Shown one piece after another: positions 28,092 through 46,104 of a DNA stretch of 64,000 nt; position 1 is the first letter of the stretch; the number at the start of each line of letters is the position of its first letter. Position numbers and translations under genes: made by a program. Location: the IMG/VR virus record IMGVR_UViG_3300034279_000522, one strand, 5' to 3'. The DNA is from an uncultured virus (IMG/VR IMGVR_UViG_3300034279_000522) (lineage: Duplodnaviria > Heunggongvirae > Uroviricota > Caudoviricetes). The notes under the pieces are model-generated. The model had not been told where the DNA came from and ran no database searches. It worked only from the letters and a program-made list of their open reading frames with translations.

Positions 28092-31000
28092 ATGGCACTG
28101 AATTTAAATACATCTCCGTATTATGATGACTTTGATGAGGCGAACAAGTTTCATAGAATTCTCTTCAAACCTGGATATGCGGTTCAGGCTCGCGAACTTA
28201 CACAATTACAAACCATTCTCCAAAATCAAGTTAATAAGTTCGGCGACCATATTTTCAAGAATGGCGCGATCGTTTCAGGTTGCGACGTTCAGATTGATAA
28301 TGAATTATCATATGTAAAAATTGATGCAAATGCTGCTGGAAATGCACGACTGCCAGAATATATCGGTAGAACAGTCGAGGGCGGTAACAATCTTACAGCA
28401 GTAATCGTAGACGCAATTGAAGCAACAGCAACAGATCCAGGAACTCTTTACCTGAGATACACAAGCGGTGATGGTAGCACAAATGCTGTCCACTTCACTG
28501 GCGCAGAAACTCTTACAGTTTTGCCAACTCCAGACCCAGAGGATACAGACCCTCTAGCAGATGATATATTTACTGTTCAAGCACTTGAAGTTGATACTGA
28601 CGTATTGACAAATAACTATTGGGGTCGTGCCACTCGCATGACTGTCGGTGAAGGTATTCTTTATATCGACGGTAAATTTATTCTCCATAGTTCGCAGACA
28701 ATTTATCTTTCAAAGTATACTGGCAACCCAACTGGTAGTGTATGCGTTGGTGCAGATGAGCAAGTATTAGACACGGGAGACGGTGTAGTGGGCGAGACTC
28801 TTCTCGATCCAGCACAAGGCACATATAACTTTGCTGCTCCTGGCGCAGATAGATACTATGTATCGACTGACCTAATTTTCGTCAATATTGGGGATACAAT
28901 CCCAGACGGATATTATGAAGTTGCAACAGTTGTTTCTGGTGGTCTTAATAGAACACATACCTCTGACATCTATGCCAAACTTGGCGACAATCTAGCACGC
29001 AGAACATATGATGAATCAGGTAATTATACGACAAAGGCATTTCCTGTTCTTGTTCGCGAACATCTAAATGTTGGTGGCAATAACGGTCTTTATACCGAAG
29101 AACTTGGTGGTGATGAATTTCTTCTTGCAGTCGGTCTTGAAGCGGGTAAAGCATATGTTCGCGGTTATGAGTACGAAACTCGCCAGACAGAATATGCTAT
29201 TACTGAAAAGGGTATTGACACCGTACAGAAATATAGTGTTCCCATTAGTTCTGCTTATGGCAACTATGTTGTAGTAACAGACTATAAGGGTGTTCTGCCA
29301 CTAGATGGTTCTAAGATTTCTCTACGCACCGACCCGCAAAACGGCGTTTCTGGTTCACAGACAGCAGTTCAAGGTACTGAAATTGGTACTGCTCGTGTTC
29401 GTCACATTGAACATGTTGGACCTGATGCTCCAGGAACTGCAACTGCAGTGTATAACATCTACGTTTACGATGTTCAGATGACAGCAGGAGACTTCGCCGA
29501 CGTTAGTGGATTGTATTACTCGACCAGTGGAACCAACGATGGTTATGCTGACGTTGTTGAATCTGTATTGAAGTCATCACAATATAATAAACTACTCTAT
29601 AGAATGCCATCGCGTGCTACTAAGACAATCAAACCACCATTTCCTTCTGGTAGTTATGAAACATCGTTATATTATACTAAGGTATATGAAAATATTGATA
29701 TAACATCGGGTGTTGGTAGCATTACACTATCGGGCAATGAGTTCTTTATCCAAGATCAAAATGATGCGATTGAAACTTACATCAATAGAAATCTTTTGAT
29801 GGTTCGAGATACTGGTGGTGCAATTGTTGATCTAACAGTAGGCACAGTTGATGCACAGGATCCTTCTTCGCAAATTATTAGTTTTTCTGGACTTGGTTTC
29901 TCTGATACGGTTACAGTATATTCTACAGTCGAAGCAAACTTTGCTGCGCCTCTTAGGAAAACTCTGAACCGAGCGAGACATGTTGCGTTTGACCTTTCAC
30001 TAAAAATTCCTACTACTGGAGTAAATACTAGCACTGAAGTTATTACATATAATAATCACGGTCTGCAAACGAATGATAAAATCAAGTATAAAGCGAATGG
30101 CGGAACTCCGATCGGCGGACTTACTGATGGAACTGAATATTTCGCAATCAATCTTGGGACGAATACATTTTCGGTTTCTGCATCTTCGGGTGGTTCAGCA
30201 ATAAATCTTTCGGGTACAGGTAACAATAATCAATACTTCTTCAAGGTAGATGGCGCTGCGTCATTAAACTTGGGCGTTGCTGACGTATTCTCTGTTGATG
30301 CTGTTTACAGAGCACCAGTTGGAACCACTACACGTGCGGCCGCTGTAACAACAGGTACTGATATCACCTCGCAATATACGTTGGATAATGGTCAGCGTGA
30401 TAACACATACGAACTTGCTAAACTTATACAAGCAAATAATGCACCTTCCCTGGAAGGTTTTAATCTGATTGTCAAGTTTAGTTACTTTACTCATGTCACA
30501 TTGTCAACGAATGCTGGTTACTTCGCGGTCGACTCATATGATGTATTGGATAGTGCAGAACCTGATAGTGCCTTTATCAAGACATACGAGATTCCAATTT
30601 ATACTTCACCAACGACTGGTGAATCGTATGACCTACGCGACACGCTGGACTTCCGAGTAAGAATTACCGACTCAGTTACACCTGCTACATTTGCAACAAT
30701 CGAGTCAGTACCAGTCAATCCAGCAAATTCAACTGGAACAATATTTAAACCATTGGGATTGAGTAATCTTACTATTCCTCGTCCTGAGCAAGAAATTAAT
30801 ATCAACTACGAATATTACGTTGGTCGTAAAGACAAGATCGTAATGGATGACCATGGAGTGTTCAGCGCAGTTAGTGGAACTCCATCACTAACTCCTGTCG
30901 AACCACTTACTCCAGAAAACGCGATGTGTATTGCGATCGTTACAATTCCACCATATCCTTCGCTTGCTCCTAATGTTGCAAAGTCAACAGGGCGCAATGA

Positions 31001-34000
31001 ATATGGTGTAACTTTCCGCACCCTTGATAATCGACGCTATACAATGCGCGATATTGGTGCAATTGAACAACGTGTTTCTCGCCTAGAATATTATACTACT
31101 CTGACACTTCTCGAAAAAGCAACAGAGTCTCTGTTTATTCCGAGTGCCACAGATGAAATGTTGAATAGATTTAAACATGGTATTCTAGTAGATGCGTTTA
31201 CTGGACACAATGTAGGTAATCCAAAGGATCTCAACTATAGTTGCTCGATTGATGCAGTCAATCAAGAACTCCGTCCTTACTTTAATATCGAAAATGTTGA
31301 TCTAATTTTTGATTCTGCAAATTCTATTGGCGTAAAAAAGACAGGCGATCTTCTAACACTTCCATATAACTATGGTGTTCTTACTCAGAATAAATTTGCT
31401 TCGAAGTCTAGAAACTGCGTTGGAGAACTCCTATTCAATTACATTGGAGATATGACCCTAGATCCTCCAGTTGATAACTGGACAGATACTGCACAACTTC
31501 CTGACCTCGCAGTAAACTTTGACGGCAACTACGACAACTTTGCTGCCATGGCAAATGCATGGGGAACTCAATGGAATGACTGGCAGGACATCGTAACTGG
31601 TCGTTCGATTTCGACCGATACAACTACAACAGGTGGACAGACTCGCGTATCTGGTGACACTCTTTTCCAAGAGCAAATTCAGATCTCAACGACAACCACT
31701 ACGCAGCGTCAAACACGTCAAGGTGTGACTATGGGTGTTACTCCAGAAACTACGACGAGGGATCTTGGTAATCGCGTAACAAATGCTTCTATCATTCCAT
31801 ATATGAGAAGTGTAACAATTACAGTTAAAACTAAGAGATTAAAACCTCTGACAAGAATCTATCCATTCTTTGACGGTATTGATGTTACAGCACATTGTCG
31901 CCCACTATCAAGTGCTGCTCTAACTGCATCACCGACTGATCCAGCAGAATATTCTGCATATGCTATTGCTGGTCCAACGGGTGTTTATGGTGCTCCGTTG
32001 GTTACTGATGCCAATGGCGAACTTGCAATTCAGTTTAAAATTCCTGCTGGTACGTTTAGAACAGGAACCAAGAACTTTAGAGTTTGCGACGATGCATTTA
32101 ATAGATCACCATTCATTACAACTTCAGCGACAAATTCATTCTCCGCGAATGGTCTTTCGCAGGTGGTCGAGGGAACTGTTGTTTCTACGAGAGAGGCAAA
32201 AGTATCTTTCACTAATGTTAGTGATTCTCGTTCGGTGACTGAAAACAATACTACTGCAAATCGCATCGGCGAGAGAACAGTTGGAACAATTCAGAATACT
32301 ACAGTAAATAACACCTTTACGACTGTTAACAACACTACAAACGTTTCTAATGTTACTAACAATACAATAGAAGTTAATGAAACCAATGTTGTAAATACGG
32401 TGGTTAATAATATTACTCTAGTGGAAGAAATTACTAATATTACTAATAATCCCACTATTGTTGTTGAGAGAGAAGTTCCAGTTCCTCCAATTATACCGCC
32501 ACCACCTCCGCCTCCACCGCCACCTCCTCCTCCTGGGCCACCAGCAGAACCTGAGTTGGTAGAGTTTAATTTCGACGATAATGGGTTTCCAGATTTTGGA
32601 AATCTTGGGTTCTTTGGTATTGGCCCTTTCGGAGCATTAGATCCACTCGCACAAAGTTTCTTTGTTGATGGTATGCCATTTGGAACATTCGCAACTGGTC
32701 TGGATGTATACTTCAGAACTAAGGGAACTGCTCCAATTACTCTACAACTTCGTGAGATGGTTAACGGATTTCCATCAGAGAAGGTTCTTCCATTCGGCGA
32801 AGTTACTTTGAGTGCAGACGAGGTTGCTGTATCAACTGAGAATCTCGCAGGTGAAGTAACATCATTCGCAGAAACTCGCTTCACATTCCCATCACCAGTA
32901 TATCTGCAAAACAATACAGAATATTGTTTCGTTCTTCTACCTGCGGGTAACGATCCTGGATATACTGCATGGGTTTCGGAACTCGGTGAAAATGAAGTAG
33001 GTATTTCTGGTGTTTCTAAGAGAATTTCAGAACAACCAAATGTTGGTATGTTGTTCACTTCTGCAAACAATCGCACATGGAGCGAAAAGCAAGCAGAAGA
33101 TATGAAGTTTACTCTGTATCGCGCAGTCTTTGATACATCAGTTATCTCGACTGCCAAGTTCCAGAATTCTAACTATGACTATCTTGCACTTTCAGAGCAG
33201 ATGCTTCTTGTTTCTAATGATGCAGTGACCCCGACCAAGTTCACTGCTGGTGAAAAGGTTTATGTCGAGGGGCATAATTCTGATGCTGATGAACCAAAGT
33301 ATGGTTATGTTAAGCAATATGATCCGTTGTATAATGTTCTGAAGATTGTTGTGCAGGAAGGTGTATTTACTGCCGCAGATATAATCACAAACGGAACAAT
33401 CAAAACTACAGTTACTGAAGTTGAAAATAAACTGATCAACTCTATCCAGACTAATATCGGTTACATGGACTTCACGCCAACTACGGGTGTTTGGACTTAT
33501 GCCAAGACTGCAAGTGGAGCATCTAGTGCAGGATCTACATACGATCGTCTGACGTTTGGTGAAACAAATGACATCCTAACAGAAGCAGCAATTTTCTCAA
33601 AATCAAACGAGACTGCTGATCTTGGCGGTAATAAGTCAATGAATCTTCGGTTTGGTATGAAAACAATGACTGATACAGTTTCTCCTGTGATCGATCTTAG
33701 AAAGTGTTCATTGATTTGTATTTCTAACTTCATCAATTCAGATGATGGTAATAGAGATGAAGATACTAATGTTGGTACTGCAAGTTCTAAATATATTTCG
33801 CGCCGAGTTAATCTTGATGGTAACTCAGAAGATTTGAGGGTCTATCTGAGTAATTATCTACCAGCAGGAACTTCAGCAAGAATATATGCTAAGTTGCAGA
33901 ATGCATCAGACTCTAGAAACTTTGAAGATCTTGATTGGTTGGAACTAGAGACGAGCGTATCGCCACTAAGTTCTACTGCCGCTGCTGGATTTGTTGAGTA

Positions 34001-34184
34001 TGAATATAAAATACCAAAGGCAAATAAAGTTGACGAACTAGAAGATGAACCCTTCACATACACGTATTCGAATGCGACTTATACCAAATTTGACAAAATG
34101 GCGATTAAGATTGTCATGTTCTCTAACAACAGTTCTATTGTTCCTAAGTTTAAGGAACTGAGAGCAATCGCGCTGCAGGTATAA
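28092..34184 (+). CDS. Large virion structural protein (VrlC / DUF4815-like)
   Basis: NTSPYYDDFD...RILFKPGYAVQARELTQLQ, LARRTYDESGNY, GKAYVRGYE, RRYTMRDIG, DPLAQSF, LRAIAL. Confidence 0.8.
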   Translation: MALNLNTSPYYDDFDEANKFHRILFKPGYAVQARELTQLQTILQNQVNKFGDHIFKNGAIVSGCDVQIDNELSYVKIDANAAGNARLPEYIGRTVEGGNNLTAVIVDAIEATATDPGTLYLRYTSGDGSTNAVHFTGAETLTVLPTPDPEDTDPLADDIFTVQALEVDTDVLTNNYWGRATRMTVGEGILYIDGKFILHSSQTIYLSKYTGNPTGSVCVGADEQVLDTGDGVVGETLLDPAQGTYNFAAPGADRYYVSTDLIFVNIGDTIPDGYYEVATVVSGGLNRTHTSDIYAKLGDNLARRTYDESGNYTTKAFPVLVREHLNVGGNNGLYTEELGGDEFLLAVGLEAGKAYVRGYEYETRQTEYAITEKGIDTVQKYSVPISSAYGNYVVVTDYKGVLPLDGSKISLRTDPQNGVSGSQTAVQGTEIGTARVRHIEHVGPDAPGTATAVYNIYVYDVQMTAGDFADVSGLYYSTSGTNDGYADVVESVLKSSQYNKLLYRMPSRATKTIKPPFPSGSYETSLYYTKVYENIDITSGVGSITLSGNEFFIQDQNDAIETYINRNLLMVRDTGGAIVDLTVGTVDAQDPSSQIISFSGLGFSDTVTVYSTVEANFAAPLRKTLNRARHVAFDLSLKIPTTGVNTSTEVITYNNHGLQTNDKIKYKANGGTPIGGLTDGTEYFAINLGTNTFSVSASSGGSAINLSGTGNNNQYFFKVDGAASLNLGVADVFSVDAVYRAPVGTTTRAAAVTTGTDITSQYTLDNGQRDNTYELAKLIQANNAPSLEGFNLIVKFSYFTHVTLSTNAGYFAVDSYDVLDSAEPDSAFIKTYEIPIYTSPTTGESYDLRDTLDFRVRITDSVTPATFATIESVPVNPANSTGTIFKPLGLSNLTIPRPEQEININYEYYVGRKDKIVMDDHGVFSAVSGTPSLTPVEPLTPENAMCIAIVTIPPYPSLAPNVAKSTGRNEYGVTFRTLDNRRYTMRDIGAIEQRVSRLEYYTTLTLLEKATESLFIPSATDEMLNRFKHGILVDAFTGHNVGNPKDLNYSCSIDAVNQELRPYFNIENVDLIFDSANSIGVKKTGDLLTLPYNYGVLTQNKFASKSRNCVGELLFNYIGDMTLDPPVDNWTDTAQLPDLAVNFDGNYDNFAAMANAWGTQWNDWQDIVTGRSISTDTTTTGGQTRVSGDTLFQEQIQISTTTTTQRQTRQGVTMGVTPETTTRDLGNRVTNASIIPYMRSVTITVKTKRLKPLTRIYPFFDGIDVTAHCRPLSSAALTASPTDPAEYSAYAIAGPTGVYGAPLVTDANGELAIQFKIPAGTFRTGTKNFRVCDDAFNRSPFITTSATNSFSANGLSQVVEGTVVSTREAKVSFTNVSDSRSVTENNTTANRIGERTVGTIQNTTVNNTFTTVNNTTNVSNVTNNTIEVNETNVVNTVVNNITLVEEITNITNNPTIVVEREVPVPPIIPPPPPPPPPPPPPGPPAEPELVEFNFDDNGFPDFGNLGFFGIGPFGALDPLAQSFFVDGMPFGTFATGLDVYFRTKGTAPITLQLREMVNGFPSEKVLPFGEVTLSADEVAVSTENLAGEVTSFAETRFTFPSPVYLQNNTEYCFVLLPAGNDPGYTAWVSELGENEVGISGVSKRISEQPNVGMLFTSANNRTWSEKQAEDMKFTLYRAVFDTSVISTAKFQNSNYDYLALSEQMLLVSNDAVTPTKFTAGEKVYVEGHNSDADEPKYGYVKQYDPLYNVLKIVVQEGVFTAADIITNGTIKTTVTEVENKLINSIQTNIGYMDFTPTTGVWTYAKTASGASSAGSTYDRLTFGETNDILTEAAIFSKSNETADLGGNKSMNLRFGMKTMTDTVSPVIDLRKCSLICISNFINSDDGNRDEDTNVGTASSKYISRRVNLDGNSEDLRVYLSNYLPAGTSARIYAKLQNASDSRNFEDLDWLELETSVSPLSSTAAAGFVEYEYKIPKANKVDELEDEPFTYTYSNATYTKFDKMAIKIVMFSNNSSIVPKFKELRAIALQV

Positions 34185-34185
34185 T

Positions 34186-34413
34186 ATGGCAAAATTCGCA
34201 CTTCAAGATACGAATAAATACATTAGAGATGGAGACTCCAAAGCAATTGTCTCTACTGATAAACACGAATTAGCAGCATATAATGCACAACGTGAAAGAC
34301 TTAAACAAATGAAGTCATATGGAATTGAGATTAATGAATTAAAGAATGAGATGACGGAAATTAAATCTTTGTTAACACAAATTCTCAACAATCATGAAGG
34401 TAGGAAAGCATGA
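34186..34413 (+). CDS. Small coiled-coil hypothetical protein
   Basis: RD..SKAIV...EINELKNEMTEIKSLL; tightly coupled to both neighbours. Confidence 0.75.
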   Translation: MAKFALQDTNKYIRDGDSKAIVSTDKHELAAYNAQRERLKQMKSYGIEINELKNEMTEIKSLLTQILNNHEGRKA

Positions 34414-34892
34414 GCACAATTACACTGAGGTCCGCCAAGGGCGTACCTTTAACAAATAATGAGGTTGATGATAACTTTACCAACCTCAATGACGATAAGT
34501 ATCAATCTGGTGACAGTCCATCGTTCGAGAACCTGACACTAACTGGCGCATTTATCCCATCGGTAACTGCATCGGTTGCTGCAGCAGGAACCGATCAAGG
34601 CACTGCAACTGCGCTGACAAAAACAGTCAATATTGTCACCTCGGCAACAACAAACCAAGGGGTCAAACTCCCGACTGCTGCTGTAGGCGTTTCTGTTACT
34701 ATTATCAATACTACTGCGGTTACCATTAAGGTTTATCCAAGCACATCTGACGTCATTGACGAAGGAACTGTGAACGTTGCTGTTAATCTGGCACCATATA
34801 GTTCTGTTCAGTTAGTTGCACAGGATACGCAAGACTGGTATCGCATTACCAATCTTATTGTTTACGACACAAGTGGTAACAGGTTAAACTAA
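34410..34892 (+). CDS. Putative fibre/adaptor structural protein
   Basis: ITLRSAKGVPLTNNEVDDNF N-terminus typical of phage fibre anchors; ATGA overlap with upstream gene. Confidence 0.65.
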   Translation: MSTITLRSAKGVPLTNNEVDDNFTNLNDDKYQSGDSPSFENLTLTGAFIPSVTASVAAAGTDQGTATALTKTVNIVTSATTNQGVKLPTAAVGVSVTIINTTAVTIKVYPSTSDVIDEGTVNVAVNLAPYSSVQLVAQDTQDWYRITNLIVYDTSGNRLN

Positions 34893-34893: not shown

Positions 34894-37800
34894 ATGAATC
34901 CTCTAAAGGTCAAAGCATCTACGACGCCAATTACGTCTGCTGTTTTCAGTGGTCTAGAACCTTTGACCAATGCAGAGGTTCAGAACTATATTGCCAATGT
35001 TATCACAACTAAGTTCGCGACGGATACAACTGGATCTGGCGCTGCTGAGATAAACATCACAACAGACAATTCGGGGACAGGAACTTCTATTGGAACGTTC
35101 GTTGATACGGATAGAACTGAAGCGACAGGAACACATCCTGCCACGGGTGACACAACTAGCACTACATACTATGTAAAGCAAGTAACTGCTCCTGCTTCTG
35201 AAAATGTTACTGCTCGTCCTGTTGCTTGGTTATCTGATGGCATTCGCCGAATGACAGATGGCGATTTAGATGGCGTTTTAGATACTGTAATCTCAGCGTT
35301 TGTTTCTGAGTCTGAGTATACTGCTGGTCAATATAGACTACAAGCAACTGCTCCGACAGGTGGAACTTGGCAAGCAAGATACACACTCACTGATGTTGCG
35401 AACGGCGGAAATACCACAACCTACCTGTGGCAAAAAACCGCTGCTTCGACAGCTGCCAACGATTCTCTTGCACCATTAAAAAGTAACGATGCCAACTCGT
35501 TGAAGATCATGACCGCTGCCGAAATTGAGCAGTTGGTTCCGAACTTCCGTAATCGCATTATCGATACTAATATCGGAACTTATAAACTCCAAGCGACTGC
35601 TCCAGGTGGCGGAACATGGGTTGAATTAGGAACCTCTACTACTGATACCAGAGAGCAAGTTTCTCCACAAAATTATGTTGGTAACTATACTGGTAATTAT
35701 TCCGGAAATTATGTAGGTCCACAATATACTGCATTCTTTACAAGTCCTGCATACTCCCGTGCGTTTACTGGTAACTATGGCGGAACTGCAACATATACAG
35801 GATTTTTCTCTGGTCCAGGAACAACGTATAGTGGATTCTTCACTGGATTTTTCACTGGTCCTGGATATAGTTCTCCATATAGTGGCGTGACATATTCACC
35901 TGCTGCATCCTATACTGGTAACTACGTAGGTCCAGCAAACTATTCTGGTACATATACTGGTCTTGAATTGGTTGGATATACTGGTTTCTATAGTGGAGGT
36001 CCATTCTATTCCACAACTGGTGGCACATATAGCACAAGTTATACTGGATATTATAGTAGTGCACCAACGTCAGGTCCAGCATATTCTGGGACATATACTG
36101 GTCCTGGACCTACGCGATTTGCTGTAGAATTCTACACTGGATTTTATACTGGATATTACTCAGGTCCATCTATAAACTATACTGGAACACCATATTCTAC
36201 TTCTGTTCCATATACTGGTTTTTATACTGGTCCAGCATTTTACTCTGGTCCAGGAGCATCATATACAGGGTATTTCCAATCACCAGCATATACTGGTTTC
36301 TATAGCAGTGGTAGCGCCAATTATACAGGGTTCTTCCAAGCACAAGCATATGCTGGTAACTACAGTGGTGGTGGTGGATCCTATACGGGGTATTTCCAAT
36401 CACCAGCATATACTGGTACCTATGTTGGAGGTGGCACCAATTATACTGGGTTATTTGTAGCTGACGTATTTGTTGGATACTACTCTGGTCCAGGAGCATC
36501 GTATACTGGTTATTATGATGGCGAAGGTCCACCAGAGCAAGATTTCTTTGGTCCAATTTTAACTCCATATGCGGGTAATTATACTGGTGCGCCTGTCACT
36601 CAGAATTATGCTGGATATTATACTGGTGCACCAACGACACTATACTATGAAGGTATAAGTCCTGGACCTCCAATCGCTCCAGGTGAACCTGGAGAACCAG
36701 TTCCTAATTACCGAGAAGAGTTTGGTCCAGGAATTTATGTTGGATATTATACTAGCACAGGTCCAGGAGTTTACACTGGTTATTATCTAGGAACAGTTCC
36801 AACCATTGTACCATATACTGGTTTCTATAGTGGTGGTGGAACAACCAACTATGCTGGTCCAGCATACCAAGCACAGATCCCCATTTTCGGCGGCAGCATG
36901 CCTGCATTCTACTTGGGGTATTTCAGCGGTGGTCCAGGAGCAACGTATACTGGATATTACAGTAGCACCTACACTGGTTTCTACAGTGGCGCAGGAACGA
37001 CGTATACTGGATACTATACGCTGCAATGGGATATTACTGGGTTCAACGGACTGCCAACAGGATCCATTCCTGCATTTTATAGCGGAACCTTCAGCGGTCC
37101 AGGTACACCCTATACAGGGTATTTCCAATCACCAGCATATACTGGTTTCTACACTGGCGCTCCTACCAATTATACTGGTACTGCATCATACACAGGATAC
37201 TATCTTGGTTCTGGTGGACCATCATTTATGGGTTCTATATATACTGGGTTCGGTGGAAATTTTGCTGCAGGTAATGAGCCAGGAGGGTCGTTTGCGGCGT
37301 TCTATAGTAGTGGTCCAGGAACTTCATATTCAGCAAACTACTCCAGTGCACCAGTTGCATATACTGGTGTATATAGTGGAACGTATAGTCAAAGTGTAGC
37401 ATACGCTGGACTAACAAATTATACTGGACCATCATATTCTGCGACAATTCCAGGATCGACATATACTGGATATTATACTGGTCCAACATATACCACACCA
37501 ACAGGTCCAGCATATGGTCAAACATATTCGGGTAACTACAATGGATTCGTTCCAGGAACTCCATACACTGGAAACTACTCTGGTTCTGCAACCTATACAG
37601 GTTTCTATAGTGGTGTAGGTGGTAGCAATTATACTGCGATTTTCATCAGTCCTGTATATTCAGCAACTTATAGTGGTAGCTTTACTGGCAATTTCTCTGG
37701 TACTGATAACTACACAGGAAACTTTATTGGACCTGCTACATATACTGGTAATTATACTGGTAATTTTACAAGTACGTATACCAATATATATAGTGGGAAC

Positions 37801-37908
37801 TTTACAGGAAACTACTCTGGTACATACTCTGGAACCTATTCAGGCGCGACTGTACTTTCTTCTAAGGATACCGTTTCAACCGTTAAACTTTGGATTAGGA
37901 CTGCATAA
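34894..37908 (+). CDS. Tyr/Gly/Thr-repeat putative fibre protein A (1004 aa)
   Basis: About 260-aa N-terminal domain paralogous to the next gene; [YF]xGx repeats 35671-37845; shared C-terminal KDTxSTVxLWxxTA. Confidence 0.8.
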   Translation: MNPLKVKASTTPITSAVFSGLEPLTNAEVQNYIANVITTKFATDTTGSGAAEINITTDNSGTGTSIGTFVDTDRTEATGTHPATGDTTSTTYYVKQVTAPASENVTARPVAWLSDGIRRMTDGDLDGVLDTVISAFVSESEYTAGQYRLQATAPTGGTWQARYTLTDVANGGNTTTYLWQKTAASTAANDSLAPLKSNDANSLKIMTAAEIEQLVPNFRNRIIDTNIGTYKLQATAPGGGTWVELGTSTTDTREQVSPQNYVGNYTGNYSGNYVGPQYTAFFTSPAYSRAFTGNYGGTATYTGFFSGPGTTYSGFFTGFFTGPGYSSPYSGVTYSPAASYTGNYVGPANYSGTYTGLELVGYTGFYSGGPFYSTTGGTYSTSYTGYYSSAPTSGPAYSGTYTGPGPTRFAVEFYTGFYTGYYSGPSINYTGTPYSTSVPYTGFYTGPAFYSGPGASYTGYFQSPAYTGFYSSGSANYTGFFQAQAYAGNYSGGGGSYTGYFQSPAYTGTYVGGGTNYTGLFVADVFVGYYSGPGASYTGYYDGEGPPEQDFFGPILTPYAGNYTGAPVTQNYAGYYTGAPTTLYYEGISPGPPIAPGEPGEPVPNYREEFGPGIYVGYYTSTGPGVYTGYYLGTVPTIVPYTGFYSGGGTTNYAGPAYQAQIPIFGGSMPAFYLGYFSGGPGATYTGYYSSTYTGFYSGAGTTYTGYYTLQWDITGFNGLPTGSIPAFYSGTFSGPGTPYTGYFQSPAYTGFYTGAPTNYTGTASYTGYYLGSGGPSFMGSIYTGFGGNFAAGNEPGGSFAAFYSSGPGTSYSANYSSAPVAYTGVYSGTYSQSVAYAGLTNYTGPSYSATIPGSTYTGYYTGPTYTTPTGPAYGQTYSGNYNGFVPGTPYTGNYSGSATYTGFYSGVGGSNYTAIFISPVYSATYSGSFTGNFSGTDNYTGNFIGPATYTGNYTGNFTSTYTNIYSGNFTGNYSGTYSGTYSGATVLSSKDTVSTVKLWIRTA

Positions 37909-37910: not shown

Positions 37911-40001
37911 ATGGTTCTTAGAATTAAATCTTCTGCGACACCTGTTTCCTCTGCAAATATGCAGGGGTTGCAGGCAATGTCTGTAGATGAAATTAAAAAT
38001 TATGTAGCAAATATCCTAACAGTTTCCTTTGGTGCGAATGCTGATGGTGCAGGTACGGGTGAAATCAATATCACTACAAATAATACTGGCACAGGAACTG
38101 CAATCGGAACCTTTGTTGATACAGATCGTCAAGAGGCGACAGGAACTCACCCAGCGACTGGTGCGATTGATACTGTAACATATTACGCAAAGCAGGTATC
38201 TGCCGCAGCGACTGAAAGTATTACCAATAGACCGATCAAATATTCTACCGACCGCATCAAAGAAATGTCTGATGCAGAAATTGATAGTGAATTACTTGAT
38301 TATGCTATTTCTGCGATGGTCGCTGAAAGTTCGTATACTGCTGGACAGTATCGTCTGCAAGCGACTGCCCCTAGCGGCGGAACTTGGGTTTCCCGTTATA
38401 CGCTGACTGATGTTGCAAACGGTGGAAATACTCTCACTTATCTTTGGCAGAAAACTGCGGCGACTAGCACACCAGATACAAGTCTTAAACCACTTAAACT
38501 GATCAATACCAAGGACATTAAAGAAATGTCTTCAGGTGAGATTCTACAGATGCTTCCAAGTTTCCGTAATAGAATTATTGATTCTGGTCTAGGAACATAC
38601 AAACTTCAATCTTCCACACCATCTGGTGGAACATGGGTCCAACTTGGTGACGCAACAACTGACACTAGAGAACAAATTTCTCCTAGTAACTATGTGGGTA
38701 ACTATGTCGGTAACTTCAGTGGCAACTATGCTGGTGGTTACGTAGGTCCAGCAAACTACTCTGGTGGATACTCTGGTACTTTTGCAAACAATTTCACTGG
38801 TGGTTACGTAGGTCCAGCAAACTACTCTGGAACTTATGCGGGTAACTTTTCTGGTACTTATTCAGGAACCTATGCAGGTACTGCTCCGTATTCTGGAACA
38901 TACTCACAAGGATTTAGTGGTAACTATGCTGGTGGATATGTTGGACCTGCGCCTTACTCTGGGTCATACTCACAAGGATTTAGTGGTAACTATGCTGGTG
39001 GATATGTAGGCACTGCGCCGTATTCTGGTTCATATTCTCGTGGATTCAGTGGTAACTATGCTGGCGGTTATATAGGCACTGCGCCATACTCTGGAACATA
39101 TTCAAATAACTTCAGTGGCACCTACCTAGGAACATATGCTGGTTCTAGAAACTATGCAGGATCCTACGCAGGTAACTTCTCAGGTAACTATGTTGGTTAC
39201 TATGCGGGATCGAGAAACTATGCAGGATCCTATGCCAGCAACTTTTCTGGTAATTATATTGGTGCTGGTTTTGCTACCGCATATGCAGGAACATATAATC
39301 CATTCTTTGGTGGATTCGTTGGTCCAGGATACACTGGTAACTACATATCGTATTTCTCCGGAACATTTTCTGGTAACTACTTAGGTTATTTCTCAGGTTC
39401 GAGAAACTATGCAGGCAACTATGCAGGAACATATAGCGGAAATTATGTGGGGTATTTCTCTGGATCTAGAAACTATGCTGCCAATTATGCTGGTAACTAT
39501 ACAGGTAACTACCTAGGAAACTTCACTGGTAACTATATTGGACCAGCAACCTATACTGGTTTCTATTCAGGTAACTATACTGGGTTCTTCTCAGGTAACT
39601 ATATTGGACCAGCAACCTATACTGGTTTCTATAGTGGAACATACACTGGTTTCTTTACTGGCAATTATATCGGAACTGCTACATATACTGGATTCTATTC
39701 AGGTACATATACTGGAAACTTTACTGGTAACTATATTGGTCCTGCAAACTATACAGGTAATTATACTGGATTTTACACGGGCAATTTTACAGGATTCTAT
39801 ACAGGAACTGCCACCTATACGGGAACATATCTAGGTAACTTTACTGGTAACTATACTGGATTCTATGCAGGAACTGCTACCTATACTGGTTTCTACAGCG
39901 GATCTTATTCGCAGTCGTTCTCAGGAACCTATTCTGGTGCGACCATTCAAGCGACCAAAGACACTATCTCAACAGTATATTTGTGGGTAAAAACTGCATA
40001 A
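37911..40001 (+). CDS. Tyr/Gly-repeat putative fibre protein B (696 aa)
   Basis: Paralogue of the upstream gene; regular 22-aa repeats 38688-39938. Confidence 0.8.
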   Translation: MVLRIKSSATPVSSANMQGLQAMSVDEIKNYVANILTVSFGANADGAGTGEINITTNNTGTGTAIGTFVDTDRQEATGTHPATGAIDTVTYYAKQVSAAATESITNRPIKYSTDRIKEMSDAEIDSELLDYAISAMVAESSYTAGQYRLQATAPSGGTWVSRYTLTDVANGGNTLTYLWQKTAATSTPDTSLKPLKLINTKDIKEMSSGEILQMLPSFRNRIIDSGLGTYKLQSSTPSGGTWVQLGDATTDTREQISPSNYVGNYVGNFSGNYAGGYVGPANYSGGYSGTFANNFTGGYVGPANYSGTYAGNFSGTYSGTYAGTAPYSGTYSQGFSGNYAGGYVGPAPYSGSYSQGFSGNYAGGYVGTAPYSGSYSRGFSGNYAGGYIGTAPYSGTYSNNFSGTYLGTYAGSRNYAGSYAGNFSGNYVGYYAGSRNYAGSYASNFSGNYIGAGFATAYAGTYNPFFGGFVGPGYTGNYISYFSGTFSGNYLGYFSGSRNYAGNYAGTYSGNYVGYFSGSRNYAANYAGNYTGNYLGNFTGNYIGPATYTGFYSGNYTGFFSGNYIGPATYTGFYSGTYTGFFTGNYIGTATYTGFYSGTYTGNFTGNYIGPANYTGNYTGFYTGNFTGFYTGTATYTGTYLGNFTGNYTGFYAGTATYTGFYSGSYSQSFSGTYSGATIQATKDTISTVYLWVKTA

Positions 40002-42502: not shown

Positions 42503-43162
42503 TTATTTTTTCCCTATTACCATAAACCGATCGAACTCGACCTTACCATCCCAACTGTAATATGACTGCTTAATAGATCCCTCGTAGAAAACATCAGTAA
42601 CTCCAACATTCTCAATATGCTCTTCGAGTGTTGGAACGCAATTGATGCCATACATCTCTCTAAAAACATTTGACGATTGACAGGCAAAGATACAATCTGG
42701 ATTTGCTGTTGTCATTTTCTTTAGAGGATACATTGCCTCACACCCGATAGAAATTACTACATCTGTTTCTAATGCATTGATATCATGATATGCAAACGGA
42801 ATATCCCAATTGATGTGATTGAGTTCAATTCCTCTCTCGTTGTTATAGTAACGATTGAAAACCTTAGACAGTTCTAATGCATCTTTATCAATATCGATCA
42901 AGTTGAGTTTCTTGACATTTAGATTTTCGCAGAGAAGTGGAACTAAAGGAAATCCCAACCAAGAATTTAGAATCGTTATATTCAATGGATCAGGACCTCG
43001 AGTAAGTCTCTGTAAGTTTTCTACTAACCAAATGGCAGCATCCATTGTATTTGGATTCATAGATTTACGGAAATCGTCATGCTTATACGGCATTTCGTGG
43101 GCGATCTTATCTAATCCGTCGCCCCAGTTTCGGTAATTATTTAAGTAATTATAATTTAACAT
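42503..43162 (-). CDS. SAM-dependent methyltransferase-like (Rossmann-fold) protein
   Basis: ITILNSWLG (degenerate motif I), LIDID, DVVISIGCE; start set at ATG 43162. Confidence 0.5.
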   Translation of the reverse strand: MLNYNYLNNYRNWGDGLDKIAHEMPYKHDDFRKSMNPNTMDAAIWLVENLQRLTRGPDPLNITILNSWLGFPLVPLLCENLNVKKLNLIDIDKDALELSKVFNRYYNNERGIELNHINWDIPFAYHDINALETDVVISIGCEAMYPLKKMTTANPDCIFACQSSNVFREMYGINCVPTLEEHIENVGVTDVFYEGSIKQSYYSWDGKVEFDRFMVIGKK

Positions 43163-43832
43163 CTTGTGGTCTTTCCATTGAATCGTATAAACAAATAAGT
43201 GGTTCTTCGCGGAGGACTTGTTCCCGCACATCAATTGGCCACATGTATCCGTAGTTGTAACTATACACCCAACCATCTGGGAAAAAATTAATTTTTAATA
43301 GTTGTTCTCTCTTGTGCCCGAATAGATTATCAAGACCGCGATAATGAAAAAACATTTGATCAGGATAATCTGTGACAAACTTGGTAATCTTATTGACATC
43401 CAATCTATCGTTCCACCTCAACACGCTGGAATTTAGATCTGTATATGCACGAGGAATATCTTTTGTGTCTCGTTTCATTTTTCTCATGTCGTGCCAATGG
43501 GTGCGAACAAATGTCAGTCCATCTTCTGGGTCATGATCAACGATGCAATCAATATTGTTTTGAATTTCAATATCAAGATCCAGGAAAAGTTTTTCTCCAT
43601 ATTGGGGTACAACTCCTCGATCAAACAAATACAATTTGTTCCACCATTTTTCATAGTAGTTATCTTCGGGGAAGGGAATTACTATAACATCACGATGCAA
43701 TCCAATCGGATGTTCAGTCAAACAGTAAAAGTCGAAATCAGTTGTTATATGTTTTCTGCATTGTTCAAGAACACGATTAACATGTTCTGAATCATATTTG
43801 AACCCCCACTTAACTGTGTAAATACTAATCAT
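43149..43832 (-). CDS. Glycosyltransferase-like protein (KWGxKY paralogue 4)
   Basis: TVKWGFKY, FYCLTE, WWNKLYLF, FLDLD, NSSVLRW. Confidence 0.78.
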   Translation of the reverse strand: MISIYTVKWGFKYDSEHVNRVLEQCRKHITTDFDFYCLTEHPIGLHRDVIVIPFPEDNYYEKWWNKLYLFDRGVVPQYGEKLFLDLDIEIQNNIDCIVDHDPEDGLTFVRTHWHDMRKMKRDTKDIPRAYTDLNSSVLRWNDRLDVNKITKFVTDYPDQMFFHYRGLDNLFGHKREQLLKINFFPDGWVYSYNYGYMWPIDVREQVLREEPLICLYDSMERPQDVKL

Positions 43833-44650
43833 CAAATATTCCAATGCTCTAAAAGATCAGGGTCGACGAGCGACTCCTGTTTAACTTTGCCTCTGCTGTT
43901 ATCTTGAAATGGTAACAAGTCAACATTAAACACACAAAGGATACAGTCCTTTCTATATATGCCTACTTGCAAATCACCTTCGTGCCAGTTACGACCACGA
44001 TTGTATGAGTAAGCAAATGTGCTTGGGAAGTGTGCCCAAAGTGGAGTATCACTAAAGTCACCCCATCGCCAACTATGATAGTTGTCAGTTCCATCGGTGA
44101 ACGTGAACCAAATACGCTCTTGATGTTCTAGAACATCCTGCCAGATGCACTCTGTCTGATCATCTGACCAAACCATGCAACTACCATTAGTGTAAGCACC
44201 ATGCGCCAACTTAAAGTTTCGAGTCTTCATGGGTCGAGGGTCTTGCCACCACGAGCGTAACTTGGTAGGATTCTCTAGGTCATAAGTGATGATCGGCGAC
44301 AAATCATTTTGAATGATAACATCAAGGTCGAAAAAGACAAATCTTCCAGTGGGTTTATCGTCTGCGAAGTTATGTGTATTGAAGATGAACGTCTTTGGTC
44401 TGTCCCAACAACGTGCCATGCCGTATTTGAAATCCTCAGATCCAAACCAGTATTTCGGATGGATGTTGGGAATGTCTGGGAAGTCGATGACTTTAATTTC
44501 ATTATCAAAACCTTCGCTGTTATCTGTATAGCAATAGAAATGGAACTCAAAATTATCAGGGGTGTGCTTCTTTGCCATTCTATAAAGACGGTTGACAAAC
44601 TCAGCGGAATACTTTGTACCCCATTTACAGCAGACGTAATTAACTCTCAT
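43832..44650 (-). CDS. Glycosyltransferase-like protein (KWGxKY paralogue 3)
   Basis: CCKWGTKY, FYCYTD, FFDLD, NGSCMVW. Confidence 0.78.
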   Translation of the reverse strand: MRVNYVCCKWGTKYSAEFVNRLYRMAKKHTPDNFEFHFYCYTDNSEGFDNEIKVIDFPDIPNIHPKYWFGSEDFKYGMARCWDRPKTFIFNTHNFADDKPTGRFVFFDLDVIIQNDLSPIITYDLENPTKLRSWWQDPRPMKTRNFKLAHGAYTNGSCMVWSDDQTECIWQDVLEHQERIWFTFTDGTDNYHSWRWGDFSDTPLWAHFPSTFAYSYNRGRNWHEGDLQVGIYRKDCILCVFNVDLLPFQDNSRGKVKQESLVDPDLLEHWNI

Positions 44651-45399
44651 TTCCACAATCCAATAATATTTTCATCTTGGCAATCTACCAGTTCTATTTG
44701 CTCTTTGGCGGAAGGATGAGGAACATTATCTGTATTGAACAAGCAAATCTTAGCATCGGGTCGAAACTTAAATCTTTCAATGTCATCTGGATGATGCTTT
44801 CCTCGATTCCAAGAATAGATCCATCCACCTGGAATATCTTTCCAGAAGTCTCTCTGCCTCCAGTAATGATAATTATCGCTTCCCTTGAAGAAAGTTTTAA
44901 ATATCGATTCGGAATTCTCGATGGCATCGTTGTAGATATGTTCGCATGATTTACCAGGCCAAAGCATCATACTAGAGTTGAAAAAAGTTCCTCTGGTGTC
45001 AATAAACAGTCTGTCATGTTTCTGTGATTGTGGTTGCCAGCGGCATTGAATGATGCGAGGTTTCTGTGCAAGTTCCAGAACCTCAGTTATATCTTCTTGG
45101 ATTACTACGTCAAGGTCAAAATAACACCAGTTACCTACGTACCCTAACCAGTTGTGCGAATTAAATACTGAGAACTTTGCTCTGTCGAAACAGAAGGTTT
45201 CTTTGCCAAACCAATATTTCGGATGTAGGATACCATCATCAGGTATAGGTGCAGTATCGCAAATTAAACCATCGGCATCATCCGTATAACACGTGAATGT
45301 GAAAAGGTTGGTGTAGTTCTTCTTTACCATATTGTAAAGATTATTCACATATTTGGCGGGATACTTATCGCCCCACTTAATGCATACGAAGTTCATCAT
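44647..45399 (-). CDS. Glycosyltransferase-like protein (KWGxKY paralogue 2)
   Basis: CIKWGDKY..KYVNNL, FTCYTD, YFDLD, NSSMMLW. Confidence 0.78.
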   Translation of the reverse strand: MMNFVCIKWGDKYPAKYVNNLYNMVKKNYTNLFTFTCYTDDADGLICDTAPIPDDGILHPKYWFGKETFCFDRAKFSVFNSHNWLGYVGNWCYFDLDVVIQEDITEVLELAQKPRIIQCRWQPQSQKHDRLFIDTRGTFFNSSMMLWPGKSCEHIYNDAIENSESIFKTFFKGSDNYHYWRQRDFWKDIPGGWIYSWNRGKHHPDDIERFKFRPDAKICLFNTDNVPHPSAKEQIELVDCQDENIIGLWK

Positions 45400-46054: not shown

Positions 46055-46068
46055 CACAACTCCAAAAT

Positions 46069-46094
46069 TATAAATAGTGTCATAGTAATTTATA
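46069..46094. promoter_or_regulatory. Overlapping divergent late promoters
   Basis: TATAAATA on + at 46069-46076; variant TATAAATT on - at 46094-46087 pointing into the glycosyltransferase operon. Confidence 0.55.
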
Positions 46095-46104
46095 AGGGTT
46101 CCCG

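What the first reader, a model, noticed from the sequence alone, without database searches (positions are those of the whole stretch)
37911..40001. Mirror-symmetric [Y/F]-x-G-x repeat protein: a possible out-and-back hairpin fibre
Seen: the repeat region (38688-39938) is built from ~22-aa units, mostly five [YF]xGx tetrads plus a 3-residue kink. The kinks run PAN, PAN, TAP, PAP, TAP, TAP, SRN, SRN, then a unique central segment AGFATAYAGTYNPFFGGFVGPG (39264-39329), then SRN, SRN, PAT, PAT, TAT, PAN, TAT, TAT. That is 8 kinks per side, with the SRN pairs mirrored about the centre and arms of about 192 and 203 aa. The outbound arm favours YSG/YAG and the return arm YTG. The array sits between an N-terminal domain and a short C-terminal cap, both conserved in the paralogue. 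Inference: the chain runs out, turns at a tip and returns in register so the C-terminus rejoins the base domain. I cannot assign this architecture to a known fold.
Basis: partly seen in the sequence, partly recalled or inferred. Interest (0 to 1): 0.8.

Follow-up and report, generated by a model that had tools for sequence, protein, structure and literature searches.

The report
Fold-back tyrosine-glycine hairpin phage fibre
A tail-region gene of an uncultured freshwater T4-like phage encodes a protein whose chain very probably runs about 208 residues out from a small three-lobed base, turns, and runs back paired with itself, a way of building a thin virus fibre that I found in no paper, family library or solved structure.

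Summary
ORF 37911-40001 (696 aa) carries a 417-aa array of [YF]xGx tetrads with a 22-aa period. It has eight 2-residue kinks on each side of a unique centre.

The out-and-back reading is strongly supported by comparison, not by a solved or confident 3-D model.
- The C-terminal cap (…YLWVKTA) is the counterpart of the second hairpin strand of base module 2 (…YLWQKTA). So the array is an insertion in the hairpin loop of module 3.
- The register fixed by that homology alone (i pairs with 937-i) puts 86 aromatic residues opposite glycines along both arms. It is also the best of 401 registers scanned.
- The homology-predicted register is exactly the best one in 53 of 99 relatives, and within 4 in 79.
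- Arms are equal to within 2 residues in 65 of 77 distinct relatives (chance about 1).
- A strain with 256 of 260 identical base residues has arms 73 and 74 residues longer.

The base resembles MABP beta-prisms (Z 7.4-5.6, borderline). No Pfam, PHROG, NCBIfam or PDB sequence match exists.

Still open: oligomeric state (the trimer job never ran), straight versus folded ribbon, presence in virions, and function.

This scan had already reported the same design on other DNA (39 notes, at least 32 genomes).

The parts
37911..40001 (+). Whole gene, 696 aa plus stop (fibre B, protein P0001)
   Evidence: Intact ORF. Identical copies lie on three IMG/VR contigs, L001-L003, and on record G001.
37911..38210 (+). 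Base module 1 (aa 1-100): strand-strand-helix-strand-hairpin
   Evidence: The secondary structure of relatives shows three like modules. Local alignment of module 1 to module 3 scores 46.
38211..38468 (+). Base module 2 (aa 101-186). It ends in the short hairpin …GGTWVSRYTLTDVANGGNTLTYLWQKTA, which sets the reference register.
   Evidence: In the P0033 model, DSSP strands 158-170 and 172-183 form this hairpin.
38469..38687 (+). Base module 3, first part (aa 187-259), up to …GGTWVQLGDATTDTREQISPS. This is the outgoing strand of the hairpin that carries the array.
   Evidence: Module 2 against module 3 gives a local score of 88 with shared IKEMS..EI and PSGGTWV.
38688..39293 (+). Outbound arm (aa 260-461): 39 [YF]xGx tetrads and 8 kinks (AN, AN, AP x4, RN x2)
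39294..39329 (+). Tip, YNPFFGGFVGPG (aa 462-473). In the predicted register the turn is at G468/F469.
   Evidence: The consensus [FY]xG[TN]Y[TN][LRP][FY][YF]GG[FY][VA]G[GP] is kept in 77 distinct relatives. The same motif forms nearly the whole hairpin in 287-296-aa family members.
39330..39938 (+). Return arm (aa 474-676): 43 tetrads and 8 kinks (RN x2, AT x3, AN, AT x2)
39939..39998 (+). C-terminal cap ATIQATKDTISTVYLWVKTA (aa 677-696). It is the returning strand of the module-3 hairpin.
   Evidence: YLWVKTA matches the end of module 2, YLWQKTA. The equivalent cap in the P0033 model has pLDDT 94.
34894..37908 (+). Paralogue (fibre A, 1004 aa, P0002). It has the same base and cap, an irregular 725-aa Tyr/Gly/Pro array, and a different tip motif, PPIAPGEPGE.
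   Evidence: Its arms are 331 and 384 residues about the motif, and no single register fits.
28092..34892 (+). Tightly packed upstream genes of the same block: a 2030-aa protein (phrog_358), a 75-aa virion structural protein (phrog_473) and a 160-aa protein
   Evidence: The gene order is conserved in related loci. Gaps or overlaps between these genes are 0-4 nt.

Best explanation
The protein is a fibre of a T4-like phage, built as one giant fold-back beta-hairpin.

Anatomy:
- About 260 N-terminal residues form a three-lobed, beta-prism-like base made of three tandem modules.
- The beta-hairpin of the third module has been lengthened by 417 residues.
- The chain runs out for about 208 residues, turns at G468/F469 inside the aromatic tip YNPFFGGFVGPG, and runs back antiparallel and in register. 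Residue i lies opposite residue 937-i.
- The last 20 residues complete the base.

How the ribbon is held together: on one face, every Tyr/Phe of one strand lies opposite a Gly of the other. This is the cross-strand pairing known as aromatic rescue of glycine. It gives a continuous aromatic ladder.

The kinks: every 22 residues, both strands carry a 2-residue insert at about the same level ([PT]-A-[NPT] opposite [PT]-A-[TN], with Ala opposite Ala). Each insert shifts the Tyr/Gly lattice by half a period.

Length: it is set by the number of units and evolves by matching gains and losses in both arms. If the ribbon is straight it would reach about 70 nm. That figure assumes the textbook rise of about 0.33-0.34 nm per residue, which I recall rather than computed.

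My inferences, not shown:
- The conserved base docks on the baseplate or neck.
- The conserved aromatic tip, flanked by the only arginines of the array, touches the host envelope.
- Arm length tunes reach.

Oligomeric state is open. I put about 45% on one free-standing ribbon per chain, about 40% on a bundle of ribbons (a trimer, for example), and the rest on something else.
For: Context:
- The gene lies between baseplate wedge genes and neck, sheath, tube and portal genes.
- The gene order giant protein, phrog_473 protein, 160-aa protein, fibre A, fibre B, then three small genes is conserved in the related loci that reach far enough.

Insertion in a hairpin:
- The cap equals the second strand of module 2.
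- Family members of 287-296 aa have only a tip-like hairpin of roughly 15-20 residues at that place.

Register:
- With S = 937, taken only from the module-2 hairpin, 86 aromatic:Gly pairs appear. A register shifted by 4 gives 63, and one of the wrong parity gives 14.
- S = 937 is also the best of 401 registers scanned.
- For the 416-aa relative, S = 658 gives 29 pairs and aligns PAP with TAT.
- For the 843-aa near-identical strain, S = 1084 gives 117 pairs.
- Across 99 relatives that could be anchored, the best register equals the predicted one in 53 and lies within 4 in 79.

Balance of the arms:
- 75 of 103 proteins have exactly equal arms and 86 are within 2.
- 65 of 77 distinct sequences are within 2, against a chance mean of 0.96.
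- A second tip class (PPLAPGEPGD) is central within 9 residues in 14 of 16 proteins.
- In most of the other 38, an irregular tip straddles the midpoint, judged by eye.

Paired change:
- L004-L018 have 256 of 260 identical base residues and arms longer by 73 and 74 residues.
- 10 independent sister pairs show equal non-zero changes in both arms.
- The number of kinks is equal in both arms in 64 of 77.
- 5 of 6 position-4 glycines of the N arm face a C-arm aromatic. Shifted registers give 0-3.

Models:
- The 329-aa relative is modelled as one long hairpin, with strands 231-270 and 277-327, mean pLDDT 89.9 and pTM 0.79.

Precedent:
- The MPEG1 MABP domain has an inserted hyper-extended hairpin with a hydrophobic tip that binds lipid (PMC7593815, passages read).
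- Cross-strand aromatic rescue of Gly is described in PMC7583600, which cites Merkel and Regan 1998 (passages read).
Against: - No confident 3-D model of the array exists. In the 416-aa relative the array has block-mean pLDDT 30-55, and the ESM Atlas model of this protein has pLDDT 0.43.
- I had no coordinates, so I saw no contact map.
- Seven of 18 changed sister pairs are unbalanced, for example by one 22-residue unit in a single arm. 12 of 77 distinct sequences are off by more than 2.
- Two relatives lack a centre. P0010 has its tip deleted between SRN units. P0078 has a 60-aa array. Both come from short contigs and could be assembly collapses.
- The paralogue P0002 fits no single register.
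- A family-wide test for covariation on the second face found nothing: G:aromatic 12 observed against 7.3 expected, the same as in shifted controls.
- No cultured relative, virion proteome or micrograph is available.
- The RNA-library evidence is only 151-218-nt contigs that may be DNA carry-over.
- A two-stranded ribbon 70 nm long has no solved precedent as far as I know. Tail fibres are typically trimers (abstract of PMC12143355, search listing).
Confidence: 0.72

Rival explanations
1. The hairpins of three chains wrap around a common axis and form a six-stranded antiparallel needle like the tip of the T4 long tail fibre protein gp37. The tyrosine/glycine face is buried in the core in place of gp37's metal sites. 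This keeps the fold-back and changes only the quaternary structure.
For: - gp37 has a six-stranded antiparallel needle made of three chains (PMC9659904, which cites Bartual et al. 2010, passage read).
- Tail fibres are typically trimeric (abstract of PMC12143355, search listing).
- One face of the ribbon is a continuous aromatic stripe that would be better buried.
- The low monomer pLDDT of the array is what an obligate oligomer often gives.
Against: - The base is a single-chain pseudo-threefold prism, like monomeric MABP domains.
- The array has no histidine, and a profile of the family finds no PDB chain at E up to 10 except one at 1.5 that is unrelated.
- Subfamilies carry Pro at tetrad position 4 every 8 residues in both arms (P0040, P0042). 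That disfavours continuous hydrogen bonding between ribbon edges in a closed barrel (my inference).
- In P0001 the second face also carries aromatic:Gly pairs.
Confidence: 0.3
2. The paired ribbon does not stay straight. It folds at the 22-residue kinks into a compact accordion-like beta-sandwich or curved sheet, so the protein is a knob or plate and not a long fibre.
For: - Kinks occur at the same level in both strands and contain Pro, Gly and Asn.
- In the low-confidence model of the 416-aa relative, the strands break at the kinks. The array aligns weakly to small curved sheets such as Sm folds and porins, Z 3-4.5.
Against: - Some subfamilies have no kinks at all over 115-135 residues per arm: P0040, P0042, P0053, P0064.
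- Others have irregular kink spacings of 6, 14 and 10 residues. Neither pattern can give equal layers.
- Array length varies continuously from about 16 to more than 700 residues. That suits a shaft better than a packed domain.
- The model concerned has pLDDT 30-55 in the array.
Confidence: 0.12
3. The array is a parallel beta-solenoid or an intrinsically disordered, low-complexity Tyr/Gly region. The symmetry would then be a by-product of tandem duplication.
For: - Composition is extreme: G 97, Y 76, T 48, S 45, N 42 of 417, with no D, E, K, H, C, M or W.
- The DNA shows only direct repeats.
- 4 of 43 family members give weak hits to the Pfam Gly-zipper_YMGG model, best E 2.9e-4.
Against: Tandem duplication gives translational order, not mirrored order. 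It cannot explain any of the following:
- Arms equal within 2 residues in 65 of 77.
- Mirrored kink positions.
- Matching changes in both arms between near-identical strains.
- A register, predicted from a different module, that aligns 86 aromatic:Gly pairs.
Confidence: 0.03
4. The fold-back hairpin is real but the protein is not a host-binding tail fibre. It could be a head or neck decoration, a whisker-like sensor, or an assembly scaffold.
For: - The T4 genome region between gp8 and gp13 also holds the whisker gene wac. I recall this and did not test it.
- The tip is conserved across many phages, which is unusual for a receptor-binding site under host pressure.
- No receptor-binding domain family is detected.
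Against: - The neighbouring genes are baseplate and virion structural genes.
- Two paralogues with different tips, and very fast length variation between strains, are typical of host-range determinants (my inference).
- A separate gene with an Mtd_N domain at 49261-50616 shows that the phage has other fibre-like genes, so roles may be shared.
Confidence: 0.15

Closest known systems
Needle domain of the T4 long tail fibre tip protein gp37 (Bartual et al. 2010, as described in PMC9659904, passage read; PDB code 2XGF recalled)
   Same: The chain runs out to a distal tip and back antiparallel, so both ends of the shaft segment sit at the proximal end. It is a thin beta shaft of a T4-like phage fibre.
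   Different: - gp37's needle is described as six-stranded and made of three chains.
- As I recall, it is held by His-coordinated iron and is only tens of residues per strand.
- Here there is no His at all and no sequence match to any PDB chain.
- The shaft here is a [YF]xGx repeat with aromatic:Gly pairing, arms run from 39 to 277 residues in this data set, and the oligomeric state is unknown.
MABP (MVB12-associated beta-prism) domains, especially the MPEG1/perforin-2 P2 domain with its inserted hyper-extended beta-hairpin (PMC7593815, passages read)
   Same: - A pseudo-threefold beta-prism-like base, with one hairpin greatly lengthened and ending in a hydrophobic tip with basic residues nearby.
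- The top four structural matches of the base model are all of this kind: 8b6v_A Z 7.4 (rmsd 4.1, 124 aligned), 2qp2_A Z 7.1, 3tow_A Z 6.2 and 6sb1_A Z 5.6. The next unrelated chain scores 3.1.
   Different: - Z is below the level (about 8) at which the tool's own notes call a match safe.
- There is no Pfam hit.
- Each module here contains a helix.
- As I recall, the MPEG1 hairpin is tens of residues long. It has no repeat.
- The MPEG1 domain belongs to a pore-forming immune protein, not a virion.
[quoted passage not shown]
   Same: Cross-strand pairing of an aromatic side chain with Gly stabilises antiparallel strands. Here it is used at every second residue of both strands.
   Different: Those are single pairs or 12-16-residue peptides. 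Here there are 86 consecutive pairs in one natural protein.
Glycine-rich motifs of T-even gp38 adhesins (PMC3157838, search listing only; polyglycine-II sandwich recalled)
   Same: A glycine-rich repeat in the distal fibre proteins of T4-type phages.
   Different: Those motifs have a period of three and form polyglycine-II helices (recalled). Here the period is four with alternating faces, which fits beta-strands. No sequence similarity was detected.

Membership tests
T4 gp37 needle/collar (long tail fibre tip) | Detectable sequence similarity to gp37 C-terminal region | tested here: not met
   A profile of 64 family members searched against all PDB chain sequences gave one unrelated hit at E 1.5. 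Pfam, PHROG and NCBIfam gave no hit.
T4 gp37 needle/collar (long tail fibre tip) | His-x-His metal-binding motifs along the needle (recalled feature) | tested here: not met
   The 417-aa array contains no histidine.
T4 gp37 needle/collar (long tail fibre tip) | Chain runs out and back antiparallel | tested here: met
   Shown by comparative evidence only: balanced arms, mirrored kinks and the predicted register.
T4 gp37 needle/collar (long tail fibre tip) | Homotrimer forming a six-stranded needle | not tested
MABP / beta-prism domains | Three-sheet pseudo-threefold prism fold | tested here: inconclusive
   Three tandem modules are seen in the sequence and in the models. VIA-align gives Z 7.4, 7.1, 6.2 and 5.6 to four MABP-type domains, with the next unrelated chain at 3.1. 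These values are below the tool's safe level of about 8. Foldseek found nothing at E up to 0.001.
MABP / beta-prism domains | Match to the Pfam sequence model of the family | tested here: not met
   No MABP model appears among the Pfam hits of P0001, P0002 or the 43 members of alignment A2 at E up to 0.1.
Pfam Gly-zipper_YMGG (PF13441) | Score above the curated cut-off on most members | tested here: not met
   Only 4 of 43 members hit, best E 2.9e-4. P0001 has no hit. One relative, P0084, carries it in precomputed tables. I take this to be a match of composition.
Annotated phage tail fibre families (PHROGs) | Match to any PHROG | tested here: not met
   0 families for P0001 and P0002 at E up to 0.01.

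The most novel reading that the evidence does not exclude
Each chain forms a free-standing, single-chain, two-stranded beta-ribbon up to about 70 nm long here, and longer in relatives. It would be stabilised only by a continuous aromatic-over-glycine zipper and rooted in a beta-prism base. It would need no trimerisation, metal or chaperone-built core. Its length would be adjusted in evolution by matching unit gains in both strands. That would be a new structural principle for a virus fibre and a natural, length-programmable beta-hairpin rod.
Probability: 0.4. Interest if true: 0.9.

Novelty: new variant of a known kind. Interest (0 to 1): 0.78.

Why it matters
- If the reading holds, phages have a way of making long thin fibres that differs from the trimeric coiled, beta-helical or collagen-like shafts in textbooks. 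One chain folds back on itself and is zipped by Tyr/Phe over Gly.
- The family is large. There are 566 representatives at E up to 0.001 among 50%-identity clusters. It is entirely unannotated and sits in the host-recognition block of abundant aquatic T4-like phages.
- Near-identical strains differ by 73-74 residues per arm, which would be about 24 nm. Fibre length may therefore be a fast-evolving trait in phage-host contact.
- The simple pairing rule (aromatic opposite Gly, kink opposite kink, register fixed by the base) makes the idea directly testable. It would also be useful as a design rule for beta-hairpin rods of set length.

Tried and rejected
- **Trimer prediction.** The job was 3 copies of residues 236-416 of the 416-aa relative, with alignment A1. 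I handed it in. It was never accepted, so nothing can be said on the oligomer.
- **Foldseek.** A search of the PDB with the P0033 model and of BFVD with the P0138 model gave no match at E up to 0.001.
- **Weak structural matches.** VIA-align matched the low-confidence array to Sm folds and porins at Z 3-4.5. I discarded these because that part of the model is unreliable.
- **ESM Atlas** showed only unnamed viral clusters.
- **Phage collection.** tblastn of P0001 found one record, Phage C48C1, with 27% identity inside a 3348-aa hypothetical protein. Megablast of 14 kb around the gene found nothing.
- **Neighbouring genes.** NCBIfam, Pfam and PDB sequence searches gave nothing usable.
- **Second-face covariation.** No signal across the family.
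- **Extension of the position-4 Gly/Phe count.** The extension to L004 and L021 stopped with a script error after the P0001 rows, and I did not repeat it.
- **P0002.** No single register fits it.
- **Expression.** Four RNA libraries hold 151-218-nt contigs, several with 0-2 differences from parts of the gene. The shares are small (0.07-0.10) and DNA carry-over cannot be excluded, so I count this neither as expression nor as habitat evidence.
- **Own assembly.** It is not held. The nearest record, G001, is a 30-kb fragment with the same two genes.
- **Literature.** Searches for a description of this family found nothing relevant. The terms were tail fiber/tyrosine/glycine-rich/myovirus/marine, fold-back/beta-hairpin/tail fiber/phage/tyrosine and Tyr-Gly/repeat/bacteriophage/structural protein. 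Papers outside the held library were not searched.
Full report
**What is there**

The ORF 37911..40001 (+) is intact and encodes 696 aa. It follows, two bases on, a 1004-aa paralogue at 34894..37908 that shares its first 260 residues or so and its last 20.

Tandem Repeats Finder reports 66- and 132-nt periods over 38864-39859.
- Units are five [YF]xGx tetrads plus two extra residues.
- The kinks run AN, AN, AP x4, RN x2, then a unique centre, then RN x2, AT x3, AN, AT x2.
- The centre is …AGFATAYAGTYNPFFGGFVGPG…

The arm-specific composition also holds. Position 2 is mostly S, A or V going out and mostly T coming back. Position 4 is Gly six times in the outbound arm and never in the return arm. 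It is Phe nine times in the return arm and never in the outbound arm.

The 417-aa array is G 97, Y 76, T 48, S 45, N 42, A 35, F 34, P 12, V 9, I 7, R 5, L 4 and Q 3. It has no D, E, K, H, C, M or W. At the DNA level there are only diverged direct repeats (60-78% identity) and no inverted repeat. The SRN units on both sides of the centre belong to one direct-repeat family.

**Context**

The window is a piece of a T4-like myovirus.
- Upstream lie homologues of baseplate hub, tube-cap and wedge proteins.
- Downstream lie neck, sheath-stabiliser, terminase, sheath, tube, portal and scaffold genes.
- The portal protein is about 51% identical to those of Synechococcus phage Syn19 and Pelagibacter phage HTVC008M.
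- The gene sits in a tightly packed run: a 2030-aa protein (phrog_358), a 75-aa virion structural protein (phrog_473), a 160-aa protein, fibre A, fibre B.
- This order, followed by three small genes, is conserved in the IMG/VR loci that reach far enough. More distant loci show a single match to the base domain.

**No known family**

P0001 and P0002 hit nothing in Pfam, PHROGs or NCBIfam. A profile of 64 relatives finds no solved structure by sequence. The phage collection holds one distant relative only.

Yet the family is large. There are 608 proteins at E up to 0.001 among the 8000 candidates scored. There are 566 representatives of 50%-identity clusters, 123 of them at E up to 1e-30. Where sources give a name, it is 'hypothetical protein' in all but one case (one 'ribosomal protein L29'). 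Contigs reach 175 kb.

**The base and the place of the array**

Models of two relatives show three tandem modules of about 85 residues, each strand-strand-helix-strand-hairpin.
- For the 416-aa relative, pLDDT is above 90 for most of the base.
- For the 329-aa relative, mean pLDDT is 89.9 and pTM 0.79.

In P0001, module 2 ends …PSGGTWVSRYTLTDVANGGNTLTYLWQKTA. Module 3 reads …PSGGTWVQLGDATTDTREQISPS, then the array, then …TIQATKDTISTVYLWVKTA. The cap is therefore the returning strand of the module-3 hairpin, and the array is an insertion in its loop.

Natural minimal forms exist. Members of 287-296 aa have only a hairpin of roughly 15-20 residues there, made of a tip-like motif such as YNVFFAGFAGPTFAG or GYFYGG.

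The best structural matches of the base are four MABP-type beta-prism domains: 8b6v_A Z 7.4, 2qp2_A 7.1, 3tow_A 6.2 and 6sb1_A 5.6. The next unrelated chain scores 3.1 (the same four lead). These Z values are borderline by the tool's own notes, and Foldseek found nothing. I call the base MABP-like, not a member.

**Test 1: balanced arms**

- Among 268 proteins on hand, 69 had a cap and a single class-1 tip motif. The rest were dropped: 127 without a recognisable cap (many truncated), 18 without repeats, 53 without that motif and 1 with two motifs.
- In these 69, the arms ranged from 39 to 211 residues with r = 0.96. The difference fell in a 6-residue window in 55.
- I then set zero by physical reasoning, so that the register at the tip equals the register at the base. 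On that scale 75 of 103 proteins (session proteins plus IMG/VR translations) have exactly equal arms and 86 are within 2.
- Among 77 distinct sequences, 65 are within 2. Random placement of the tip gives a mean of 0.96 and a maximum of 5 in 2000 trials.
- An independent set of 54 IMG/VR loci gave 52 parsable proteins with arms of 63-282. In 45 of them the difference took one of two adjacent values.
- A second tip class, P[PD]LAPGEPG[DE], typical of the fibre-A paralogues, lies within 9 residues of the centre in 14 of 16. P0002 itself is off by 53.
- In most of the remaining 38 proteins, judged by eye, an irregular segment straddles the exact midpoint. The clear exceptions are P0010 (tip deleted between SRN units, 3.2-kb contig) and P0078 (60-aa array).

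**Test 2: paired change**

- Loci L004-L018 encode an 843-aa protein with 256 of 260 identical base residues and an identical cap. Its arms are 73 and 74 residues longer than here.
- Over 68 pairs with at least 95% identical bases and different N arms, the change in the C arm equals that in the N arm within 1 residue in 84% (r = 0.988, changes from -168 to +98).
- I built a tree from the base domain alone, with the array and cap left out. Of its 23 sister pairs, 18 differ in arm length.
- In 11 of these 18 the change is equal within 1. Ten are non-zero: 8/8, 10/10, 12/12, 16/16, 20/20, 22/22 three times, 24/24 and 30/30.
- In the other 7 it is unequal: 22/0 twice, 8/0, 0/5, 0/6, 36/58 and 26/45.
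- So balance is the rule, but one-unit imbalances exist or are assembled.

**Test 3: mirrored kinks**

In 40 distinct kink patterns with 186 N-arm kinks, 85% have a C-arm kink within 4 residues of the mirror distance from the GG turn. In 500 random slides the mean was 47% and the maximum 66%. Irregular spacings are mirrored too, for example 11, 37, 55, 81 against 12, 38, 56, 82. The number of kinks is equal in both arms in 64 of 77.

**Test 4: a register predicted from elsewhere**

In the model of the 416-aa relative, the module-2 hairpin pairs residue 158 with 183 (strands 158-170 and 172-183). Transferring that pairing by homology to module 3 and the cap fixes the sum S of partner positions without looking at the array.
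- For the 416-aa relative, S = 658. In that register all aromatic residues of either arm lie opposite Gly (29 pairs). Kink PAP lies opposite TAT, and TAP opposite PAT, with Ala facing Ala.
- For P0001, S = 937 gives 86 aromatic:Gly pairs along the whole length. S = 941 gives 63 and S = 938 gives 14. The turn is then G468/F469 within FFGGFV.
- S = 937 is the best of 401 registers scanned.
- For the 843-aa strain, S = 1084 gives 117 pairs.
- Over 99 relatives with both anchors, the best of 401 registers equals the predicted one in 53 and lies within 4 in 79 (169 of 268 were dropped: 157 without a cap, 9 without an anchor, 3 too short).
- In P0001, 5 of the 6 position-4 glycines of the outbound arm face a return-arm aromatic, against 0-3 in shifted registers. 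The units are copies, so this is a weak addition.
- A family-wide test on that face showed nothing.

**What the models add**

The 329-aa relative is modelled as one continuous hairpin: strands 231-256 and 259-270, a turn, then 277-289 and 292-327. The hairpin blocks have pLDDT 59-82. In the 416-aa relative the array has pLDDT 30-55, while the cap, docked on the base, has 94. I had no coordinates and therefore no contact maps.

**Most likely mechanism**

Shown: the anatomy, the insertion point, the balance, the mirrored kinks and the pairing rule.

Inferred:
- A two-stranded antiparallel ribbon about 208 residues per strand, roughly 70 nm if straight (rise per residue recalled from textbooks).
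- On one face, Tyr/Phe of each strand covers Gly of the other. This is aromatic rescue (PMC7583600, passages read).
- The other face is Ser, Thr, Asn and Ala.
- The 2-residue inserts at matching levels shift the Tyr/Gly lattice by half a period.

The tip motif is conserved in 77 distinct sequences and is the core of the minimal hairpins. All five arginines of the array lie in its distal half (residues 377, 413, 435, 498 and 520).

By analogy with the MPEG1 MABP hairpin, I propose that the base anchors the fibre to the virion and the tip touches the host envelope. In MPEG1 the hydrophobic tip and nearby basic residues bind lipid (PMC7593815, passages read). The tip could instead merely nucleate folding.

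Arm length would set reach. The two paralogues with different tips would give two specificities.

**What stays open**

- Oligomeric state. The trimer prediction could not be run.
- Whether the ribbon is straight.
- Whether the protein is in virions.
- The host. Small contigs in four RNA libraries match parts of the gene, several with 0-2 differences, but they prove neither transcription nor habitat.

**Comparison and novelty**

- The out-and-back principle exists in the T4 gp37 needle, which is six-stranded and made of three chains (PMC9659904, passage read).
- An extended hairpin from a beta-prism exists in MPEG1.
- Neither is a repeat, neither is length-variable, and neither shares sequence with this family.
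- Three literature searches found no description of it.
- This scan, however, has reported the same design before on other DNA. Eight look-alikes were found by sequence, and 39 notes in at least 32 genomes by words. Those are unchecked AI notes, and the tests above are my own.

I rate it a new variant of a known kind (a phage fibre with a fold-back shaft). There is a substantial chance that the shaft is a new structural principle.

Noticed in passing
window 3821-4198 (+): The phage carries a permuted, alphaproteobacterial-type tmRNA gene. ARAGORN calls a permuted tmRNA with tag peptide ANDNVAFALAA. Rfam tmRNA_permuted scores 89.3 bits (gathering score 47) and alpha_tmRNA scores 61.4 bits. This may hint at an alphaproteobacterial host.
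   Followed up: partly
window 49261-50616 (+): A 451-aa ORF has an N-terminal Mtd_N domain (major tropism determinant N-terminal domain, E 3.7e-14). It is another fibre-like gene in the same phage.
   Followed up: no
window 28092-34184 (+): A 2030-aa protein (phrog_358, no known function) lies directly upstream. It contains a long proline run (…PPIIPPPPPPPPPPPPGPP…) and an Asn/Thr/Val-rich low-complexity stretch. It is conserved next to the fibre genes in related loci.
   Followed up: partly
window 15827-16930 and 16930-19938 (+): The gp5-like baseplate hub/lysozyme appears as two adjacent ORFs. The 367-aa ORF matches the first part of phrog_430 and the 1002-aa ORF matches its later part.
   Followed up: no
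window 43149-43844 and 43832-44656 (-), within the run 42503-46144: Several minus-strand ORFs of 230-275 aa have no family match. Two of them begin alike (…KWG.KY..E.VNR…), so they may be paralogues.
   Followed up: no
proteins P0160, P0186, P0220; P0174, P0232 (relatives): The same base and cap carry arrays with other repeat chemistries: aromatic-x-Arg-x tetrads such as FARTFSANYSRSFARVY, and YYQYAxY units. The fold-back design seems not to depend on Gly in all branches.
   Followed up: no
proteins P0010 (507 aa) and P0078 (415 aa), relatives: These variants lack the central tip. P0010 looks like P0014 with the segment between two SRN units removed. Both come from short contigs (3.2 and 8.0 kb), so they may be recombinants or assembly collapses.
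   Followed up: partly
window 34410-34892 (+): The 160-aa protein just upstream of fibre A begins …TLRSAKGVPLTNNEVDDNFTNLN…. This resembles N-terminal motifs I recall from other phage fibre proteins. It has no family or PDB match.
   Followed up: partly
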